A stretch of 64,000 bases of DNA from a virus. Taxonomy: Duplodnaviria > Heunggongvirae > Uroviricota > Caudoviricetes. Made by a program: the position numbers. This document shows positions 27,001-39,000 of the stretch, one piece after another. Location: IMG/VR virus record IMGVR_UViG_3300044699_000054, positions 1-64,000 of that record, one strand, 5' to 3'. Every line of letters begins with the position of its first letter. Within the stretch, counting starts at the first letter, position 1.

Positions 27001-30000
27001 ACTGCCGCCGGGTATCCCTATGTTCACACATGATCTGCAGCAGCTCATCGAGCAGCACCCTGAGGTCAAGCTGCCACCCGATACGGAGAACATCCATCAC
27101 GCTCTGGCAGATGCCCGCTGGGTGCGGGATGCGTATAACCAGATCATGTCTCCGGTACCCAAAGACGAGCCAAACCCGTACGGGTTTATAGATTGAGGAA
27201 GGCCCTATGCCAATTTTTGTTGTCAAGATCCCAGGTCAGGAAGATGTCCTCAGGATCCCTGCTGATGACATGGCCTATGATCAATATAATCTTGAACTGA
27301 CCGCTGGAGATCGGGTTATCGCCTACTTCAAGGATTGGAGCTACGTCTGGGAGCTACCAGCGGAGGAGTCTCCCGATGTTGTCCAGTAGACGAGCTTGCT
27401 GAGGTAGTTGTGCGCTCCGGCTTGGACTCTCGGTAACGCTTCGTACGGCCGTGTGCATAGCCTCGGTGCGTGTGCGCTTCCTGTCGACGTGATTCCAGAT
27501 CCAGCTGTGTGACACCGGGCTCCAGGCCCCACGTGACAAAGTTGACGATGTCTTGAGCTAGCTGCCGGGACCACCACTGGTCCCGGCCTTTTATTGTCAG
27601 GCTGATAGTGATAATACCTAATGCCTCACCTGTGATGCCGTGACAGGTAATACGACTGTCGCCATCACAGGCCATCGCCAGGATCTTGGTCGCCTTCTTC
27701 AGCACCCGGTCCCGGTCTTCTGGTACTGGTGTCAGTGCGTAGGTGAAGGTTCTGTTAGAGCCGGTCATTTGCCTCTGATGACCCATCGGGTGAGGGTGTT
27801 ACTAGCGGTGATGAAGAGAATGCCATATCGGTTACCCGTGAAGCATCTCGCCGGTATTGACCTAGTTCTGACATCAGTGCACGGTTCTGCTGCATCATGG
27901 CATCCTGGTTGCCATTGGTTTGCGCTTTGATCTCGCGCAGTTCAGCAATTCCAAGTGCCAGTAGAACGGTAATTATGGCACCACTAACGGCTGCTACATC
28001 TCGACCAAACAGTGCCGTGGTACCGATGACCAGCATTGCTACGGTAACCATTACGGCCAATGGCCACGACACAGTCCTCATAAAGTTGATCGTCTCAAGA
28101 AAAGTGATCTTTAGACAAGTAGGCGATGTCGGTTTCTGCGCCATTGGGATAAGGCCCCAGGTTCCCCATCTGGAGGAAGCAGGGCCTTATCTGTTGTACG
28201 TACAAGTGTGGCGCTGGTAATTCTACCCAGCTTCAATCCCAGCTTCAACATCATCCACAATGTCTTTGAACCGGTACGCGTGCCACCGGAAGTCAATCGG
28301 CCGTGCTCGACGTGCCGGCCCCGGTGACGTGTCTTTGAGCTGTTGCCAGCAGATGGCATAGCCAAGAGTCCGGTCGTCATTGAGCCAGCGCTCAAACATG
28401 ACCACGACACCACCGTCAGCATCCACGGACTCCCTGCCCAGGAGTCCGATAGCGTCGCCTAGCTTCAGCTCCCCGTGCTCGATCTCGGTAACCCAGCCGT
28501 CCTCTAGCAGACTGACCGTGCTCAGGCCGCCCCAGCTGTGTGGTACGTGCAGTGGAATGTCCCAGCACATACAGGCGTAGCCAGCTGGGTCGGATCGGTA
28601 ACCGTCAGGTTGGTGAAAGTTGACTTTGCTGAAGGGCACGGTCCCGATCTCCCAGCCGTAGCGCATCCGGAGCCCCACCCGAGTTCTACTAATCGGCATC
28701 GTTACCCCCTTTCCTTATACGATCTTGGCGTTCTGCCATGCCAGATTGGAGTCTCCCTTTGTCGGTAGTCCACTGGTATTCCCCGGCTGTCCGTTGGGCA
28801 GCTGGTGGTGACGCCATAGCCAGGACTTCCGTACCAGGTGCGAGATCTTGGCCCCAGCTTCCAAGCATCCCATGGTGAAGTGCCGGTCCTCGCCACTGTT
28901 CGAGTCGTGCCCACGATCCAGTGCTTTGTAGCCCACCTGCTTTGCCAGTTCCGTACGAACCAGTACCGTAATGGTAGTTTCAATTGGATCTTCAGGATCG
29001 AATGGATTCAGGTAATGGGTGATAGGGAAGACTGGATCATGTTCGAGGATCTGTGTCGTTCCATTGGCGAATTGCTGCAGTACCTTGAACCAGCTGTAGA
29101 CAAAATCTGCGCCGGTCTCCTGAGCATGCTTCATGAGCCATTCAATGTGCTTTGGGAGAAATACATCATCGGAGTCCAAGCAAGCAACCCAGTCCGTAGT
29201 AACCGAATCCAGGGCACGTTGCCTAGTCGCCGCTGCACCTTCCCGGTTGGTGTCGATGGCTACTATGTGCGCCTCCACGGGACGGGTCTGGCTGTATACC
29301 GATTCCGTTGCCATCCTTAGCATTGGGCCAGCTAGCCGACCTACGTGTACCGGAGTGATAACAGATACCGATGGATTCTTGCTCATCTCAGCACCCCGGG
29401 AAGTAGTAGTCGACCGTAACCTGTGGCACATGAATCCATTGCGCACCGCCACTTAGCCAAGCTTCGACAATAGCCCAGTCGGGTGCATGCTGATCACCTT
29501 GGATCACGCTTGGATGAGGCCATCGTGATACATCCATAAGCTGGCGCCGCTGCACGATCATTGACGTGTCGATACCAGCATACTGAGGCGGGTTGGTGCC
29601 AATGACAACCTCATGTGGGTGGGTAATCATAAGCCCGTAAGCGAACGATGCTTCTGGATTAATCTCCAGCGCTTTGACCAGAAGCGATAGGTGGTCTGGG
29701 CGCCAGCTATTATCGTCGTCAAGATATGCAATGAGATCCCCAGTAGCATAATCCAGTCCCCAATTTCTGGCGGTGCTGCCAAAGTTCATTCTGTGATCAT
29801 CGTGCTCTGGGCATTCGATATACGTTACTGGCTCTTCTGCAAGTAACCCACGCAATGTGGGGTCTGGACCGTCGCTGACAACGATGTGCTCAGTATCTGT
29901 ATAACTCTGCCGTTGTACAGATGGAATAGCCCGACCTAGCAACAGGTGATGGCGCTGCCATGTCGGAGTGATGATGGATACCTTCATGCCGCCACCAACA

Positions 30001-36000: not shown

Positions 36001-39000
36001 TCGCCACCGGTCACCTACTCTGGATGCTCAACGTTAGGCACTGGCTCAGCTTCTGGATCAACAACTATTTCGTTGGATGGTGCCTCTCCCCGGTCAGGGA
36101 ACTGGGTCTCAATTGACTCTTCCGTCCGGGTGTAAACCGCTTCAACAGGCTCCGGATCCGTCATGCAATTACTGTAGCAGGGGTACCCGCTTTTGATCCC
36201 CGTTGAATGTCATAAGCCCTGGTCCACGCCTCCAGCCATCGCCAGGAGTTCTTTTCAATGGTCTGGCTGCGCATGTACTCCCGGCCAGCTTCACCCATTT
36301 CTTGGCGCAGTGAGTCATCATCCATGAGCTTTTTGATGGCCTGGTACCAGTCCTTTGGACGATCGGCCAGGATGCCGGTTCCAGATTCCTTGTGGAATCG
36401 CCGGTACTCAGTACGTGGACTGCCGACCCAGGGCACTCCGACAGCAGCTGCTTCTACCGCCTTCAGCCGGGACTTAGAAGCATTGAATGGTGATATCTCC
36501 AACGGACACATGGAGACAGCAAGCTTTGATATTTCCGTGGTCCAGTTCTCGATGGGCACCTTGCCGGTGTAGGCAGGCTCATCATTCAGGCGCAGATTCT
36601 GCTTTAACCTTGGATGGTGGGCCAATAACTCGGAAGTCTGTATCCATCTTGGATCAGGTCCTGCACCGCCCGTCCGCATACCTGTAGATCGCCTGGGTGC
36701 GAGGTCGTCATCCCAGCCCAACCGAATACCGGCTCCTTATCAACCTTGATGTCTAGGTACCGCTCTGGAACATAGTTGTCGAGCACTGCGCCGCGACCGT
36801 GCTTGGCGTACACCTTCAGCAGACTGGCGGTGGACAGTGTGACGAGACTGGCTTCCTTGCACGCCATCTCGGAGAATTTCCAGGAGAACGGTGTATTGGA
36901 CCGTGGGTGGTAGTTGGCGTATGACGTGTTATCCCGGTGGATACAGGTTAGATCGTCATCCATATCGATTACTGTGGCCACGCCTTTGGCCCGGAGGATA
37001 GGCAACGCCTGTGGATGCCAGAAGTGCGCGAATCCGTTGCATGACAACAACATCAGCCTCGGGCGCTACTACATCAGTGACCGTGTAGCCTTCTAGATGG
37101 AGCGTGAGGCCGGTGCCTTCCTCCGGCGGCTCGATGACGATGTCATGACCCTGGGACTGAAGATGTTCAGCCGCCCATAGGAGACGGTAGTAACCACATC
37201 CACCGAGATCTGCAGGAAGGACAAGTATTCGCAATATTCCTCCTAAATCTATAGTAGGAATGGGTCGATTGGTCCAGGAGCTTTAGTAACTGCGCCTTCT
37301 GTTACCAATCGAACACTGGCAATTTTTTCGGCTATGTCAGCACTGTAACCGGCGCTTAGTTGAGCAATAGGCTGGCCGTCTTTGTCCAAAAGTTCAACGG
37401 CTACAGGAATAAGTTGGGCCACTATAAGTCGTGATTTCACTTGTTCAATAGTTAATTCAGTTTTAGTTGGATCGTCTATGTCTACAAGTCCAGTGCCCAA
37501 TTTGATCTCTCCTCTTTTTAAGTGTGTATCGATACACAAGTTCCTGCGATATCAGGTCGTTCGGTTATTGAACAATAGTCTTCTACCCAAAGCCCTCCGG
37601 ATCCAATACCGTTAAGGTTTGATAGGTTAGTAACTGCAGCTCCACTTGTACGTTGATGACTTATAGTAAGTTTCGTTGAAATAACATTGTCGCTAGAATT
37701 TTTCCAGTAACCAATAAATTCAACACTACAAAAGTCACCTATACCTGCAACGCTGTTTACTCCTTGCCGCCATGCATAAAGCAGTGTTCCTACGGTTGTT
37801 GCTGTTCCCTTTCTAATTCGGATTAGATCGCCTGAGTCGTTACCAGCGGACAAGTTATTGAGCATGCCGGCAAGGTGGCATCGAAATATTCTCTGAGGGC
37901 TGAAGTCCATAGTAGGCTCAGTTGTATAGCTTGCTGAAGCTATAGCTACTTCTGCACCGCCAGAGTTAACTCCGCCAAAGCCAATTAGTGTGTTAGCACC
38001 AATCACACTTCTAGGCTCTGATGCGGTTAAAATACTGCCCAAACATAACCATGTGTTGTCTTGACGGAGCAAAGCTACTGTTTCGCCGACACCAACAGTT
38101 GATCCCCAAACGATTCCAGGTCTAACTACAGATCCACCTTGCAATGACACAATGAGTGGATACACCTGTGAAACTGTGCCAACCCGGACTGTGTTATCAG
38201 TACCAGTCCCTGGTGTGGCCGGCGCATTCGCGAGTGAAGCAACAAGTAGCTGATCAGGTCCAGTCATCAGCCCACCCGAGTTAGCTTGATCCAGGATTCT
38301 GTCTTCAGACGAGTGTTTACCGCTTCAGCAGCATTCTGTGTCCAGCGCAACTGAAGATTCCCCGCTGTACCAACGGTAAGGACGCTGCCGTTGAGGATAC
38401 CGGCGACAAAGGTACCGATGCCGGCGCCACCACGAGCGATGGCTGTACCCGCAGCTGCAGAGAAGCCGTTGCTGAATGCGAGTGCGGTATCAGGTGCGGT
38501 GATGCCCCAAAGTGGCATGGTAAAGCCAGCTGGCCCGGTCCAGTCAAACTTGATGTCGCCAGTAGTTCCCGAGTCCCACTGAAAATATCCATATAGCTCA
38601 TAGCGAGCGTTTACCTGCATAGGCAGCAGCAGGTGGGTATCGACCACGAACACGGTGGTGTTGTTGGCAACCTGCGCCTCGGCGGACTTCCGGACCCAGA
38701 GTGGGTGATCTTCCCACCAAACGGGTGTGCCACCACCAGTTACACACCGATGCCATTGAGCTTCGGCAGTGAGGTAGCACTTTTCCCCAGCAGTGGGGCT
38801 CGGATTACGGGCTGTGCGGTCGGCTGCATTGGTGTACCGCTTGACCAGCCGGCTTTCAATAACTGCCGTCTGGTTAGTGAACGCTACAGGCGCATCAGCA
38901 GTATCAGCATCCACTGGAAGGGGGATGGCCTGGTCGGCAGTGTTAGTGGGCATCTGGTGTATCCCTTACAGTGGGCAGATTCGATATACTTGGAACCCCG

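What the first reader, a model, noticed from the sequence alone, without database searches (positions are those of the whole stretch)
28715..37234. Phage-borne deoxysugar-tailoring and glycosylation cluster between tail and lysis genes
Nine co-oriented genes are present: two GT2 genes, an FAD oxidoreductase, a TylF-like O-methyltransferase, an RmlD-like NDP-sugar 4-ketoreductase, a TylCIII-like NDP-hexose C-methyltransferase, two more GT-A genes (one frameshifted) and a GT4 gene. This enzyme set is what antibiotic pathways use to make branched-chain 3-C-methyl, O-methylated 6-deoxyhexoses (mycarose/cladinose/noviose-like) from dTDP-4-keto-6-deoxyglucose. The missing steps (RmlA/RmlB) could be supplied by an actinobacterial host. 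Simple virion glycosyltransferases are known in mycobacteriophages, but a phage encoding branched-sugar tailoring plus five glycosyltransferases would be an unusually elaborate system. Its product could decorate capsid or tail proteins for immune or defence evasion, or remodel host cell-wall glycans for superinfection exclusion.
Basis: partly seen in the sequence, partly recalled or inferred. Interest (0 to 1): 0.85.

Follow-up and report, generated by a model that had tools for sequence, protein, structure and literature searches.

The report
Phage glycosylation island with sugar C-methyltransferase
An uncultivated phage of actinobacteria carries, between its tail and lysis genes, a tightly packed set of five sugar-transferring enzymes plus enzymes that make a rare branched, methylated deoxy-sugar; the set recurs in many related environmental phages but in no sequenced isolate, and most likely coats the virus particle with an unusual glycan.

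Summary
On the minus strand of 28715-37234 lie nine enzyme genes with the predicted families: five glycosyltransferases, an NDP-hexose C-methyltransferase with all TcaB9 catalytic residues, a compact RmlD-fold 4-ketoreductase, a small SAM methyltransferase and a DAO-fold flavoprotein. The range also holds an amidase/collagen-like lysin and two small ORFs. The DNA is phage, not host. A capsid, tail-tube and tape-measure module lies on one side and lysis and early genes on the other. The same backbone recurs in at least 17 independent viral contigs.

Three corrections apply. Two GT genes, not one, are broken here, by single-base indels absent from three near-identical contigs; a tail gene is broken too, so assembly error is likely. 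The methyltransferase is not TylF-family. No 2-deoxygenation genes exist, so mycarose/cladinose is unlikely; a 6-deoxy-C-methyl-hexose fits better.

In nine sister loci a GDP-mannose 4,6-dehydratase sits directly after the C-methyltransferase; in three an RmlB-like dehydratase is nearby. The window has neither, so the nucleotide carrier is unresolved.

No deposited actinophage has the C-methyltransferase, and no deposited phage the flavoprotein. The best reading is late, cytoplasmic virion glycosylation: a new variant of a known kind.

The parts
36161..37234 (-). GT4 (GT-B) glycosyltransferase gene, first gene of the island. In this window it is split into three ORFs by three 1-nt insertions (37030, 36640, 36602). 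It is intact at 356 aa in L003 and in a JGI contig.
   Evidence: Pfam Glyco_trans_1_2 / 1_4 / Glycos_transf_1 on the C-terminal fragment. Intact 356-aa gene in relatives. Indels listed. Best isolate relatives are Arthrobacter phage GTs at 33-35% identity.
35021..36007 (-). N-acetylmuramoyl-L-alanine amidase with a C-terminal collagen-like Gly-X-Y tail (probable endolysin or virion lysin). It is embedded in the island only in this lineage.
   Evidence: Pfam Amidase_2 5e-15 and Collagen 1e-4. PHROG endolysin families. It sits elsewhere in L005, L006, L036 and L086.
34833..35021 (-). 62-aa ORF of unknown function between the amidase and the GT-A-like gene.
   Evidence: ORF. A 62-aa gene lies at the same place in the JGI 3300041966 contig.
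34154..34840 (-). 228-aa GT-A-like glycosyltransferase, a conserved core gene of the island.
   Evidence: No Pfam or NCBIfam hit. A nine-member alignment shows the invariant NR..QVD..DNA..P and L.DD motifs typical of GT2. A weak profile match to the GT2 proteins GmaR and 7msk covers the N-terminal 37 residues only (E 0.007-0.06). The homologue in L035 carries a weak Glycos_transf_2 hit.
33529..34157 (-). Glyco_tranf_2_5 glycosyltransferase gene, frameshifted here by a 1-nt deletion at 33863. It is intact at 209 aa in L001, L003 and a JGI contig. Many relatives have a second GT4-like gene at this position instead.
   Evidence: Pfam PF13712 on both fragments. Indel. Intact homologues. GT4x alternative.
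32321..33532 (-). NDP-hexose C-methyltransferase (TylCIII / TcaB9 / KijD1 family), 403 aa from the ATG that overlaps the preceding stop codon.
   Evidence: Pfam Methyltransf_13 + 23 + 14. Full-length match to TcaB9 (3e-66), MtmC and KijD1. CxxC...CxxC is conserved, as are the residues aligned to TcaB9 Y76, H181, Y222, E224 and H225. Identity to sister loci is 41-67%.
31655..32320 (-). Compact (221 aa) RmlD-fold extended SDR, a probable NDP-4-keto-6-deoxyhexose 4-ketoreductase.
   Evidence: RmlD_sub_bind 1.6e-21. TIGR01214 scores only 62 bits against a cut-off of 224. The family has about 80 members of 166-307 aa, most of them 211-225 aa. G7, G10, S95, Y106 and K110 are invariant. The AF2 model has pLDDT 95.5. 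The top 17 PDB fold matches are all RmlD, TM 0.72-0.79.
31524..31661 (-). 45-aa ORF between the reductase and the methyltransferase, function unknown.
   Evidence: Called as a gene in L001 and the JGI contig. Translation.
30994..31524 (-). 176-aa class I SAM methyltransferase (Methyltransf_24 / cation-dependent OMT-like). First member of the conserved MT-FAD-GT2b trio.
   Evidence: Pfam Methyltransf_24 1e-14 and Methyltransf_3 3e-7. PDB OMT 2gpy at 5e-7. No match in deposited phages. The trio is conserved in L005, L035-L037 and L085-L087.
29984..31000 (-). 338-aa FAD-dependent oxidoreductase of the D-amino-acid-oxidase / GlpD fold; substrate unknown.
   Evidence: Pfam DAO 1.2e-14. AF2 pLDDT 92. 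Foldseek matches sarcosine and glycine oxidases, GlpD, L-2-hydroxyglutarate DH and opine DH at TM about 0.7. 688 metagenomic homologues. No deposited phage has it. In BFVD the fold also matches proteins of about 670-680 aa from two giant viruses, one annotated 'Glycosyl transferase'.
29388..29987 (-). GT2 glycosyltransferase 'GT2b' (199 aa), always directly after the FAD gene.
   Evidence: Glycos_transf_2 2.6e-17. DDD motif at residue 90. ATGA overlap with the FAD stop codon.
28715..29452 (-). GT2 glycosyltransferase 'GT2a' (probable start ATG at 29386, 223 aa), last gene of the island and a core gene.
   Evidence: Glycos_transf_2 1.4e-11. PHROG 14775 glycosyltransferase 1.9e-34. 40% identity to GTs of Streptomyces phages Zuko and KimJongPhill, and 36% to Arthrobacter phage GTs. 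Conserved in most sister loci at 37-71% identity (absent from L012 and the partial L037).
27755..28699 (-). Downstream boundary: a conserved 158-aa protein (28223-28699, function unknown) and a 129-aa protein with one hydrophobic segment (27755-28144, holin-like). Both follow the island in most relatives.
   Evidence: Synteny. Alignment. No PDB or Pfam match. Hydrophobicity.
37249..54221 (-). Upstream boundary: the virion structural module, comprising major capsid 52488-54221, major tail 50565-51341, head-tail adaptor 49913-50599, tape-measure-like 43543-45648 and minor tail / fibre genes 37249-43543.
   Evidence: PHROG 777, 792 and 783. tblastn to actinophage capsid and tape-measure genes.

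Best explanation
This is a late-operon glycosylation island of an uncultivated siphovirus-like phage of Actinomycetota. It sits in a fixed slot between the minor-tail genes and the lysis genes.

Shown:
- It encodes five soluble glycosyltransferases (one GT-B, four GT-A type).
- It also encodes a bona fide NDP-hexose C-methyltransferase, an RmlD-fold 4-ketoreductase, a small SAM methyltransferase and a DAO-fold flavoprotein.
- The genes are translationally coupled.

Inferred pathway:
1. An NDP-4-keto-6-deoxyhexose is taken as the starting sugar. In this genome it comes from the host or from a gene outside the window. In sister phages it is made by a phage GDP-mannose 4,6-dehydratase placed right after the C-methyltransferase, or more rarely by an RmlB-like dehydratase.
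2. The sugar is C-methylated next to the keto group.
3. The RmlD-like enzyme reduces it at C-4.
4. The product, a 6-deoxy-C-methyl-hexose of the evalose / virenose / 3-C-methylrhamnose type, is built into a short oligosaccharide by the glycosyltransferases.
5. The MT-FAD-GT2b trio adds or modifies a further methylated residue.

Inferred target: none of the enzymes has a membrane segment, there is no flippase, polymerase or priming transferase, and the genes are co-transcribed with virion genes. The acceptor is therefore most likely a cytoplasmic virion protein (capsid, tail tube or fibres), as in the glycan shield of mycobacteriophages.

In this particular window two GT genes carry frameshifts. 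These are probably assembly errors.
For: - Enzyme identities: Pfam, PDB and fold results.
- The C-methyltransferase keeps the Zn-site cysteines and the residues aligned to all five TcaB9 active-site residues.
- The reductase keeps GxxGxxG and the S-Y-K triad, which are invariant in its family, and its fold is closest to RmlD.
- Coupled start and stop codons run through the block, and no promoter or terminator excess lies inside it.
- Phage context: capsid, tail-tube and tape-measure genes upstream; amidase, a holin-like protein and an Rv2179c-like exonuclease downstream.
- The same backbone and island occur in L003-L012, L035-L037, L085-L087, L148 and L150.
- A GDP-mannose 4,6-dehydratase (PF16363 5e-103; TIGR01472 2e-94, against 8e-29 for the dTDP-glucose dehydratase model) lies directly after the C-methyltransferase or reductase in L004, L006-L012 and L150.
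- An RmlB-like dehydratase (TIGR01181 6.6e-63; PDB RmlB 4e-46) lies near it in L036, L086 and L148.
- No enzyme has a membrane segment.
- Published precedent: phage-encoded GTs glycosylate the capsid and tail tube of mycobacteriophages. GT+OMT cassettes next to structural genes are read the same way (Freeman 2023, as cited in PMC11256854, PMC12619734 and PMC13313380; Cluster O cassette in PMC4351075).
- The DAO fold also matches two giant-virus proteins of about 670-680 aa, one annotated 'Glycosyl transferase'. If these are GT fusions, they link this flavoprotein class to viral glycan synthesis.
Against: - No experiment or sequence feature identifies the acceptor. The capsid and tail-tube C-termini here show no obvious Ser/Thr-rich tail.
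- None of the four window glycosyltransferases searched (GT2a, GT2b, GT4) nor the methyltransferase has a detectable homologue in the mycobacteriophages where virion glycosylation was shown. The link is therefore by analogy only.
- The window encodes no nucleotidyltransferase or 4,6-dehydratase, so the precursor and its nucleotide are assumed.
- C-methyltransferase phylogeny does not separate GMD-type from MT-FAD-type loci, which leaves substrate specificity unclear.
- The reductase is absent from several sister loci.
- The role of the FAD enzyme is unknown.
- C-3 versus C-5 methylation cannot be told from sequence.
- Two GT genes are frameshifted in this window.
Confidence: 0.5

Rival explanations
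1. The island remodels a host envelope glycopolymer or lipid-linked intermediate (cell-wall polysaccharide, teichoic-acid-like polymer or glycolipid) during infection. The effect would be to block superinfection by other phages or to aid lysis or release, rather than to decorate the virion.
For: GT2b's weak best NCBIfam matches are cell-envelope polysaccharide GTs (TuaG, PglI, WcaA). The island abuts and interleaves with lysis genes (amidase 35021-36007). Temperate-phage GTs that change host serotype are well known (cited in PMC12619734).
Against: There is no membrane-spanning GT, flippase, polymerase, priming phosphoglycosyltransferase or GtrA/GtrB-like protein, and no hydrophobic segment in any enzyme. 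The genes lie in the late structural operon, not in a lysogeny module. No integrase was seen in the window.
Confidence: 0.15
2. The glycosyltransferases hypermodify the phage DNA, glycosylating 5-hydroxymethyl-pyrimidines, to evade restriction. The tailoring enzymes would supply an unusual donor sugar.
For: Virus-encoded GT-A and GT-B enzymes that glycosylate 5hmC DNA with diverse glycans are widespread (bioRxiv 10.1101/2023.12.21.572611, seen; cited in PMC12619734). One relative (L085) has ThyX and a DUF4406 nucleoside-transferase-like gene inserted within the island.
Against: No hydroxymethylase, TET/5mYOX or DNA cytosine methyltransferase family was found among 50 other window ORFs. Five GTs plus deoxysugar tailoring exceeds known DNA glycans. 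The island is placed and oriented with virion and lysis genes. Only part of the genome is in the window, so absence is not proven.
Confidence: 0.08
3. In this particular genome the island is decaying. The frameshifts in GT4 and the Glyco_tranf_2_5 gene are real, so the phage makes a truncated glycan or none.
For: Four single-base indels hit two GT genes, relative to three near-identical contigs where the genes are intact. The indels are not in long homopolymers. The >2986-codon ORF at 55037-63997 is uninterrupted, which argues against a very high error rate.
Against: A tail gene is frameshifted as well (window 40838-41680 plus a 268-nt gap, against an intact 369-aa ORF in L003), as is the C-terminus of the 152-aa gene. 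Disruption of an essential structural gene points to consensus or assembly errors rather than selective loss. All other island genes are intact and 98-100% identical to their relatives.
Confidence: 0.25
4. The cluster is host chromosomal DNA (a cell-wall or antibiotic sugar cluster) adjoining a prophage end.
For: The enzyme types are typical of bacterial deoxysugar clusters.
Against: Phage genes lie on both sides. The same tail-island-lysis-exonuclease order occurs in at least 17 independent viral contigs. The closest bacterial C-methyltransferases found by the two-pattern scan of 185,579 species genomes are only 36-38% identical and lie in unrelated contexts. GC3 matches the phage genes.
Confidence: 0.02

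Closest known systems
Virion glycosylation systems of mycobacteriophages (Che8 / Cluster F1, Corndog / Cluster O; Freeman et al. 2023, cited in PMC11256854 and PMC12619734; Cluster O cassette described in PMC4351075)
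   Same: The glycosyltransferases, with an O-methyltransferase in Cluster O, are phage-encoded and soluble. The genomes are actinophages, and in Cluster O the genes sit among virion structural genes. The expected outcome is glycans on capsid or tail proteins.
   Different: None of the window GTs searched, nor the methyltransferase, has a detectable homologue in those phages. The known systems have 2-4 GTs and no nucleotide-sugar tailoring genes. Here there are five GTs plus a C-methyltransferase, a 4-ketoreductase and a flavoprotein, and in sister phages a GMD or RmlB-like dehydratase. The position differs too, between tail and lysis genes. No glycan has been demonstrated.
Simple GT(+MT) islands of isolated actinophages: Streptomyces phages Zuko / KimJongPhill (genes 107-109) and Arthrobacter phages Mimi / Racecar / Atuin (genes 173-177)
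   Same: These hold the closest isolate homologues of GT2a (36-41%) and GT4 (33-35%). They are clustered GT genes, in Zukovirus with a methyltransferase between two GTs.
   Different: They have no C-methyltransferase, reductase, dehydratase or FAD enzyme. They lie at other genome positions, near tRNA and nucleic-acid metabolism genes. Function is untested in either case.
NDP-hexose C-methyltransferase pathways of antibiotic producers (TylCIII / EryBIII, TcaB9, KijD1, MtmC, NovU)
   Same: The three-domain enzyme has the same Zn site and catalytic residues. It is followed by a 4-ketoreductase, the usual order of chemistry on an NDP-4-keto-6-deoxyhexose.
   Different: There are no 2,3-dehydratase, 3-ketoreductase, aminotransferase or epimerase genes, so the product is not mycarose, cladinose or an amino sugar. 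The context is a virus and a glycan, not a polyketide. The characterised enzymes I am aware of use dTDP sugars (own knowledge), whereas most sister loci pair the enzyme with a GDP-mannose dehydratase.
Proposed GDP-linked virenose (6-deoxy-3-C-methyl-gulose) pathway of the Coxiella burnetii O-antigen (PMC3539893, PMC3204966)
   Same: In the virenose model a GMD and a TylCIII-like C-methyltransferase (CBU_0689, CBU_0691) act with a reductase, giving a surface-glycan 6-deoxy-3-C-methyl-hexose. The sister loci show the same GMD + CMT (+/- reductase) logic.
   Different: The Coxiella pathway is itself only an in-silico proposal. The window lacks GMD. Sequence identity to bacterial CMTs is at most about 38%. 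None of the 46 bacterial CMT loci fetched here has a true GMD next to it.
Virus-encoded glycosylation machinery of giant viruses (chlorovirus GMD / GMER with capsid glycans bearing methylated deoxyhexoses; mimivirus sugar pathways).
   Same: The virus carries its own nucleotide-sugar enzymes, methyltransferases and several soluble GTs to glycosylate its capsid independently of host machinery. Giant-virus MAGs also carry distant CMT homologues. The DAO fold of the window's flavoprotein matches two long giant-virus proteins, one annotated as a glycosyl transferase.
   Different: Those viruses have eukaryotic hosts and very large genomes, and no homology beyond the family level (25-30%). This is a bacterial tailed phage with a compact, recombining cassette.

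Membership tests
NDP-hexose C-methyltransferase (TylCIII / TcaB9 / KijD1; Pfam Methyltransf_13 + class I MT + Methyltransf_14) | Three-domain architecture: N-terminal zinc domain, SAM-binding Rossmann domain, C-terminal sugar-binding domain | tested here: met
   Pfam PF08421 1e-15, PF13489 1e-13 and PF08484 3e-39 in that order. End-to-end alignment to TcaB9, residues 8-398 against 17-411, E 3e-66.
NDP-hexose C-methyltransferase (TylCIII / TcaB9 / KijD1; Pfam Methyltransf_13 + class I MT + Methyltransf_14) | Cys4 zinc site and the active-site residues of TcaB9 (Y76, H181, Y222, E224, H225; numbering recalled from the TcaB9 papers) | tested here: met
   In the alignment CxxC...CxxC is kept. Query Y, H, Y, E and H align to the TcaB9 chain positions that correspond to those residues, in 'dYtfY', 'nviaHv' and 'vYhEH'. 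The same columns are invariant in the 4-sequence family alignment.
NDP-hexose C-methyltransferase (TylCIII / TcaB9 / KijD1; Pfam Methyltransf_13 + class I MT + Methyltransf_14) | SAM-dependent methylation of the carbon adjacent to the 4-keto group of an NDP-4-keto-6-deoxyhexose | not testable with these tools
   This needs an enzyme assay. The regiochemistry (C-3 or C-5) and the nucleotide (dTDP or GDP) are unknown.
RmlD (dTDP-4-dehydrorhamnose reductase, TIGR01214 equivalog) | Extended-SDR fold with GxxGxxG and a Ser/Thr-Tyr-Lys catalytic triad | tested here: met
   G7, G10, S95, Y106 and K110 are invariant in a 46-sequence family alignment. AF2 pLDDT is 95.5. The top 17 PDB fold hits are RmlD, TM 0.72-0.79.
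RmlD (dTDP-4-dehydrorhamnose reductase, TIGR01214 equivalog) | Full-length (about 285-300 aa) protein reaching the curated equivalog score | tested here: not met
   The protein is 221 aa. TIGR01214 gives 62 bits against a cut-off of 224, and the match covers only profile positions 1-148 of 285. Most of the family is 211-225 aa. It is therefore an RmlD-fold reductase, not an RmlD orthologue.
TylF-type macrocin / sugar O-methyltransferase (Pfam TylF) | Match to the TylF family profile | tested here: not met
   At E <= 0.01 only Methyltransf_24, Methyltransf_3, PCMT and Methyltransf_23 scored. The PDB matches are cation-dependent (catechol-type) OMTs at 5e-7 or weaker.
Mycarose / cladinose (2,6-dideoxy-3-C-methylhexose) pathway | NDP-hexose 2,3-dehydratase, 3-ketoreductase and 5-epimerase accompany the C-methyltransferase | tested here: not met
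   No such families occur in the island or among 50 other window ORFs, nor were any seen in the sister loci examined.
GDP-6-deoxyhexose C-methyl pathway (virenose-type: GMD + CMT + reductase) | A GDP-mannose 4,6-dehydratase linked to the C-methyltransferase | tested here: inconclusive
   It is absent from the window. It lies directly downstream of the CMT or reductase in nine sister loci. Three sister loci have an RmlB-like dehydratase instead. The genome beyond the window is unseen.
Actinobacteriophage virion glycosylation (Freeman et al. 2023) | Phage-encoded glycosyltransferases in an actinophage genome | tested here: met
   There are five GT genes. The capsid and tape-measure genes are homologous only to actinophage genes. 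The accessory domains are typical of actinophages: DUF6197, DUF2637, Rv2179c-like, and DUF397 in relatives.
Actinobacteriophage virion glycosylation (Freeman et al. 2023) | Homology of the GTs to those shown to glycosylate virions (Che8, Corndog and relatives) | tested here: not met
   tblastn of GT2a, GT2b, GT4 and the methyltransferase against 50,697 phage records gives no mycobacteriophage hit at E <= 1e-5.
Actinobacteriophage virion glycosylation (Freeman et al. 2023) | Glycans covalently attached to capsid or tail-tube subunits | not testable with these tools
   This requires virions. No isolate exists.
Serotype-converting Gtr / O-antigen modification modules | Membrane proteins: GtrA flippase, GtrB bactoprenol GT and an integral-membrane serotype-specific GT | tested here: not met
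   No hydrophobic segment (19-residue Kyte-Doolittle maximum <= 1.8) occurs in any island enzyme, and no such Pfam families were found.
Phage DNA glycosylation (5hmC/5hmU glycosyltransferases) | A co-encoded pathway for hydroxymethyl-pyrimidines (dNMP hydroxymethylase, or DNA MT + TET/5mYOX) | tested here: inconclusive
   None was found among the window ORFs, but the window is only part of the genome.

The most novel reading that the evidence does not exclude
A whole lineage of environmental actinophages builds a virion glycan that contains a C-branched (C-methyl) 6-deoxyhexose, a sugar class not, to my knowledge, reported on any virus particle. In most members this would go through GDP-linked C-methylation: a GMD-to-TylCIII-family step that has only been proposed in silico (Coxiella virenose) and not, to my knowledge, shown biochemically. 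A previously uncharacterised DAO-fold flavoprotein + methyltransferase + GT2 trio would act as an interchangeable second module. The island's modular swapping (GMD versus MT-FAD, GT25 versus GT4x, reductase present or absent) would then generate glycan diversity on virions, analogous to O-antigen diversification.
Probability: 0.3. Interest if true: 0.78.

Novelty: new variant of a known kind. Interest (0 to 1): 0.6.

Why it matters
Virion glycosylation in phages was recognised only in 2023, and only with simple glycosyltransferase sets. If this island works as inferred, tailed phages can also carry their own deoxysugar-tailoring chemistry: C-methylation, ketoreduction and, in relatives, 4,6-dehydration. 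They could then display rare branched sugars, as giant viruses and bacterial O-antigens do.

That would widen the known chemical repertoire of phage surfaces. This bears on antibody or defence evasion and on adsorption. It would also offer a compact, soluble enzyme set for glyco-engineering.

The island provides natural gene pairs (GMD next to a TylCIII-family enzyme) with which GDP-linked C-methylation could be tested directly. It also flags a large flavoprotein family, 688 homologues, almost all unnamed. In all eight neighbourhoods inspected, the family's only context was this island.

Tried and rejected
- DNA-level search of the block against 50,697 phage records found nothing.
- Host identification failed. 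The window has no tRNA. A scan of species-representative bacterial genomes with the C-methyltransferase profile found no prophage copy or close relative; the best hits were 36-38% identical in unrelated taxa. The only taxon label was a 5-kb 'Sporichthya sp.' MAG contig carrying part of the cassette, which is too weak to use.
- Assigning the FAD enzyme failed. Sequence and fold place it only in the broad DAO / GlpD / sarcosine-oxidase superfamily, at TM about 0.7 and 10-16% identity.
- The idea that the FAD enzyme replaces GMD by making the keto sugar was considered but has no direct support. The MT-FAD-GT2b trio also occurs without the C-methyltransferase (L085).
- The 158-aa conserved downstream protein has no Pfam, NCBIfam or PDB profile match.
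- C-methyltransferase phylogeny does not separate GMD-type from MT-FAD-type loci, so it cannot settle the nucleotide specificity.
- The RmlB-like dehydratase family proved to be a common gene of 61 IMG/VR contigs. It mostly lies outside this island, which weakens it as evidence for a dTDP route.
- The capsid and tail-tube C-termini show no obvious glycosylation tail.
- Promoter and terminator scans gave nothing above chance.
- Freeman et al. 2023 could not be read because it is not held in the library. The AFDB fold library was unavailable.
- Recent acquisition from a high-GC Streptomyces cluster is rejected, because GC3 matches the phage.

Full report
**What is there**

The region 28715-37234 is coding on the minus strand. 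Reading 5' to 3' on that strand, it holds the following genes.

| Gene | Coordinates | Evidence |
|---|---|---|
| GT4 (GT-B) glycosyltransferase | 36161-37234 | Split here into three ORFs; Pfam Glyco_trans_1_2 / 1_4 / Glycos_transf_1 on the C-terminal part |
| Amidase_2 protein with a collagen-like Gly-X-Y tail | 35021-36007 | |
| 62-aa ORF | 34833-35021 | |
| 228-aa GT-A-like protein | 34154-34840 | No Pfam hit; conserved family with GT2-type N-terminal and DD motifs |
| Glyco_tranf_2_5 gene | 33529-34157 | Split in two |
| C-methyltransferase | 32321-33532 | Methyltransf_13 + 23 + 14, up to 3e-39 |
| RmlD-like SDR, 221 aa | 31655-32320 | RmlD_sub_bind 1.6e-21 |
| 45-aa ORF | 31524-31661 | |
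| Methyltransferase, 176 aa | 30994-31524 | Methyltransf_24 1e-14 |
| FAD oxidoreductase, 338 aa | 29984-31000 | DAO 1.2e-14 |
| GT2b | 29388-29987 | Glycos_transf_2 2.6e-17 |
| GT2a | 28715-29452 | Glycos_transf_2 1.4e-11 |

Successive genes overlap or abut (GTGA, ATGA, TAGATG, ATGGTGA, ATGA, TGAGATG). No promoter-like or terminator-like sites above shuffled expectation interrupt the block.

**It is phage DNA, not a host flank**

Upstream on the same strand lies a virion module. It comprises the major capsid protein (PHROG 777, 3.6e-122), the major tail protein, a head-tail adaptor and a tape-measure-like protein. Their only relatives among 50,697 deposited phages are actinophage genes, with at most 41% identity for the capsid.

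Downstream lie a conserved 158-aa protein, a small protein with one hydrophobic segment, and, convergently, an Rv2179c-like exonuclease and other actinophage-typical domains (DUF6197, DUF2637).

GC3 of the island genes (0.52-0.69) matches the capsid and tail-tube genes (0.67-0.70). Recent capture from a high-GC Streptomyces cluster is therefore not indicated.

The block has no nucleotide-level match in deposited phages.

**Frameshifts**

An exact-protein look-up and an IMG/VR scan found contigs 98-100% identical to the window: L001, L003 and a JGI 3300041966 contig.

- In those contigs GT4 is one 356-aa gene and the Glyco_tranf_2_5 gene one 209-aa gene.
- The window differs by single-base insertions at 37030, 36640 and 36602 and a deletion at 33863.
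- The window also has an indel at 41651. It truncates a tail gene that is an intact 369-aa ORF in L003, against 280 aa plus a 268-nt gap here.
- Further indels lie at the 3' end of the 152-aa gene.

Because an essential tail gene is hit too, I read these as probable consensus or assembly errors. Real decay cannot be excluded. The uninterrupted ORF of more than 2986 codons at 55037-63997 argues against a very high error rate.

**Enzyme identities**

*C-methyltransferase.* It aligns end to end with the solved NDP-sugar 3-C-methyltransferases TcaB9 (E 3e-66), MtmC and KijD1. It keeps the CxxC...CxxC zinc site and the residues aligned to the TcaB9 active-site positions Y76, H181, Y222, E224 and H225. 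These are invariant in the phage family.

*Reductase.* It is not a truncated RmlD. Its family has about 80 members, most of 211-225 aa, with invariant G7, G10, S95, Y106 and K110. The AlphaFold model is confident (pLDDT 95.5), and its 17 best PDB fold matches are all dTDP-4-dehydrorhamnose reductases (TM 0.72-0.79). It falls far below the RmlD equivalog cut-off, at 62 against 224 bits. It is an RmlD-fold 4-ketoreductase candidate, not an RmlD orthologue.

*Methyltransferase.* It matches Methyltransf_24 / Methyltransf_3 and cation-dependent O-methyltransferase structures only weakly. The TylF family did not score, so 'TylF-like' is not supported.

*Flavoprotein.* It folds confidently (pLDDT 92) into the D-amino-acid-oxidase / GlpD superfamily: sarcosine and glycine oxidases, glycerol-3-phosphate and L-2-hydroxyglutarate dehydrogenases, and opine dehydrogenase, at TM about 0.7 and 10-16% identity. 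This indicates oxidation of a C-N or secondary C-OH bond. The substrate cannot be named.

*Other points.* None of the enzymes has a membrane segment. No 2,3-dehydratase, 3-ketoreductase, epimerase, aminotransferase, nucleotidyltransferase or 4,6-dehydratase is present in the island or among 50 other window ORFs.

**Comparative genomics changes the picture**

A profile scan of IMG/VR with the C-methyltransferase found ten close loci (41-100% identity). It also found 22 distant ones in jumbo phages and giant-virus MAGs. Look-ups of flavoprotein homologues added seven more contigs.

All share one backbone:

tape measure / minor tail -> GT4 - GT-A228 - (Glyco_tranf_2_5 or a second GT4-like gene) - C-methyltransferase - (with or without the short reductase) - variable module - GT2a - 158-aa protein - small hydrophobic protein - 152-aa protein - convergent exonuclease.

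The variable module comes in two forms.

- **Type A:** a GDP-mannose 4,6-dehydratase plus a distinct GT2. It occurs in L004, L006-L012 and L150. The dehydratase scores PF16363 5e-103 and TIGR01472 gmd 2e-94, against 8e-29 for the dTDP-glucose dehydratase model.
- **Type B:** the methyltransferase-flavoprotein-GT2b trio. It occurs in the window lineage, L005, L035, L036, L086 and L087. It also occurs in L085 without any C-methyltransferase, and in the partial contig L037.

Further observations:

- Two type B loci (L036, L086), and L148 (which has a C-methyltransferase but no MT-FAD trio in the fetched stretch), carry an RmlB-like dTDP-glucose 4,6-dehydratase (TIGR01181 6.6e-63; PDB RmlB 4e-46; gmd only 3.5e-5) a few genes from the C-methyltransferase.
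- That dehydratase family is common in 61 IMG/VR contigs, mostly outside this island.
- The C-methyltransferase tree does not separate the two types. The modules are shuffled by recombination.

The island is therefore a recurrent, modular feature of an environmental phage lineage. It is not a singular acquisition.

Its donor sugar is an NDP-4-keto-6-deoxyhexose whose nucleotide is unresolved for the window. GDP is favoured by the tight GMD-CMT adjacency in nine relatives. dTDP is possible given the RmlB-like genes. In the window the host, or a gene outside the 64 kb, must supply it.

**Rarity**

| Query against 50,697 deposited phage records | Result |
|---|---|
| C-methyltransferase | 7 records: huge metagenomic phages, a cyanophage and faecal contigs; no actinophage |
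| Flavoprotein | No match |
| Methyltransferase | No match |
| GT2a | Streptomyces phages Zuko / KimJongPhill; about 190-kb Arthrobacter phages |
| GT4 | The same Arthrobacter and Streptomyces phages as the only near-full-length matches, plus weaker partial hits (24-26% identity) in about 120 enterobacterial and Campylobacter phage records |

Those Arthrobacter and Streptomyces phages have simple GT or GT-MT-GT islands without tailoring enzymes.

The flavoprotein has 688 homologues at E < 1e-5 in the 5.8-billion-protein collection, nearly all unnamed metagenomic proteins. All eight neighbourhoods inspected are this island.

The best bacterial C-methyltransferases that the two-pattern scan found in 185,579 species genomes are 36-38% identical. 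None of the loci it returned has a true GMD next door.

In the viral structure library, the flavoprotein fold matches an uncultured-phage FAD oxidoreductase (TM 0.87). It also matches two giant-virus proteins of about 670-680 aa, one annotated 'Glycosyl transferase'. This is a possible Rosetta-stone hint that this flavoprotein class works with glycosyltransferases.

**Most likely mechanism**

Shown: the enzyme families, conserved catalytic residues, tight operon structure, late-gene position, and conservation and modularity across phages.

Inferred:

1. An NDP-4-keto-6-deoxyhexose is C-methylated adjacent to the keto group.
2. The RmlD-fold enzyme reduces it at C-4. Where that enzyme is absent, a host reductase or the methyltransferase itself could act. 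MtmC is a bifunctional precedent (own knowledge).
3. The product is a 6-deoxy-C-methyl-hexose of the evalose / virenose / 3-C-methyl-rhamnose type. It is not mycarose or cladinose, because 2-deoxygenation genes are missing. C-5 methylation, as in noviose, cannot be excluded.
4. The five soluble GTs assemble a short glycan.
5. The MT-FAD-GT2b trio contributes a further oxidised or methylated residue.

There is no membrane GT, flippase, polymerase or priming transferase, and the genes are co-oriented and coupled with virion and lysis genes. The acceptor is therefore most likely a cytoplasmic virion protein.

This matches what has been shown for mycobacteriophage capsid and tail-tube subunits (Freeman et al. 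2023, as summarised in PMC11256854, PMC12619734 and PMC13313380). It also matches what was suspected earlier for the Cluster O GT/OMT cassette (PMC4351075).

The link is by analogy only. None of the window GTs searched, nor the methyltransferase, has a detectable homologue in mycobacteriophages. The capsid and tail-tube C-termini show no obvious acceptor tail.

**Rivals**

- Host-envelope remodelling is weakened by the lack of any membrane component.
- DNA glycosylation is weakened by the absence of hydroxymethyl-pyrimidine genes in the window and by the size of the enzyme set. It is not excluded, because the genome is incomplete. Such systems are described in bioRxiv 10.1101/2023.12.21.572611.
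- A host-DNA origin is contradicted.
- Real pseudogenisation in this genome remains possible.

**Comparison and novelty**

The nearest known kind is phage virion glycosylation. The nearest chemistry is the TylCIII / TcaB9 branched-sugar step. For the sister loci, the closest pathway is the proposed GDP-linked virenose route of Coxiella, which uses GMD, a TylCIII-like methyltransferase and a reductase (PMC3539893). The nearest viral analogy is the self-contained glycosylation machinery of giant viruses.

Literature searches found no description of a sugar C-methyltransferase, or of this island, in phages.

I rate it a new variant of a known kind. Interest is moderately high. It is limited by the absence of an isolate, the unknown host and acceptor, and the frameshifts in this copy.

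Noticed in passing
window 55037-63997 (-), runs off the window end: An ORF of more than 2986 codons lies just upstream of the capsid gene. It has many basic Pro/Ala/Lys repeats, a PI3/4-kinase- or HipA-like 'GNQDRNKGN...IDHS' loop and a C-terminal HEVGH zincin motif. Pfam finds only a low-complexity repeat match. It may be a polyvalent or MuF-like virion protein. The region also has a strong AT skew (-0.16 to -0.22).
   Followed up: partly
window 35021-36007 (-): An amidase (probable endolysin) is fused to a collagen-like Gly-X-Y tail. It sits inside the glycosyltransferase island only in this lineage. Relatives have a plain amidase at other positions, and another near-identical contig has unrelated small genes in this slot, so it is a recombination hot spot.
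   Followed up: partly
window 40838-41948 (-), indel at 41651: A tail gene appears truncated in the window: 280 aa plus a 268-nt non-coding gap, where the 99% identical contig L003 has an intact 369-aa ORF. Further 1-2 nt indels lie at 28159, 27383/27379 and 25894. This points to consensus errors in the window sequence.
   Followed up: yes
window 37518-41680 (-): The distal tail / fibre-like genes have much lower GC3 (0.32-0.46) than the rest of the genome (0.55-0.70). The 249-aa gene matches L003 only over its first 84 residues, at 77%. This looks like exchanged host-recognition cassettes.
   Followed up: no
L085 7332-15131 (ENA scaffold ROVI19-1..., closest non-lineage relative of the flavoprotein, 65%): The methyltransferase-flavoprotein-GT2 trio occurs here without the C-methyltransferase. 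It is accompanied by a 290-aa SDR and a second Methyltransf_24 gene. ThyX, DUF4406 and two DUF397 genes are inserted before the last GT2. The trio is therefore an independent module.
   Followed up: partly
L088-L148 (IMG/VR contigs): An RmlB-like dTDP-glucose 4,6-dehydratase family (48-62% identical to the L036 gene) is present in about 60 viral contigs, mostly without the C-methyltransferase island. Nucleotide-sugar dehydratases appear to be common in this group of environmental phages.
   Followed up: partly
window 28223-28699 (-) and homologues in L004, L005, L007, L035, L036, L085-L087: A 158-aa protein always follows the island. It has many invariant Trp/Gly/Tyr residues and a conserved SMCWDIP motif, and no match in Pfam, NCBIfam, PHROGs or PDB sequences. 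It may be a lysis or glycan-related function of an unknown family.
   Followed up: partly
window 27564-27587 (+): A strong GC-rich hairpin (10 pairs, 8 of them G-C) followed by a T run lies where the convergent early (+) and late (-) gene blocks meet, inside the annotated 152-aa ORF. It may be a bidirectional terminator.
   Followed up: no
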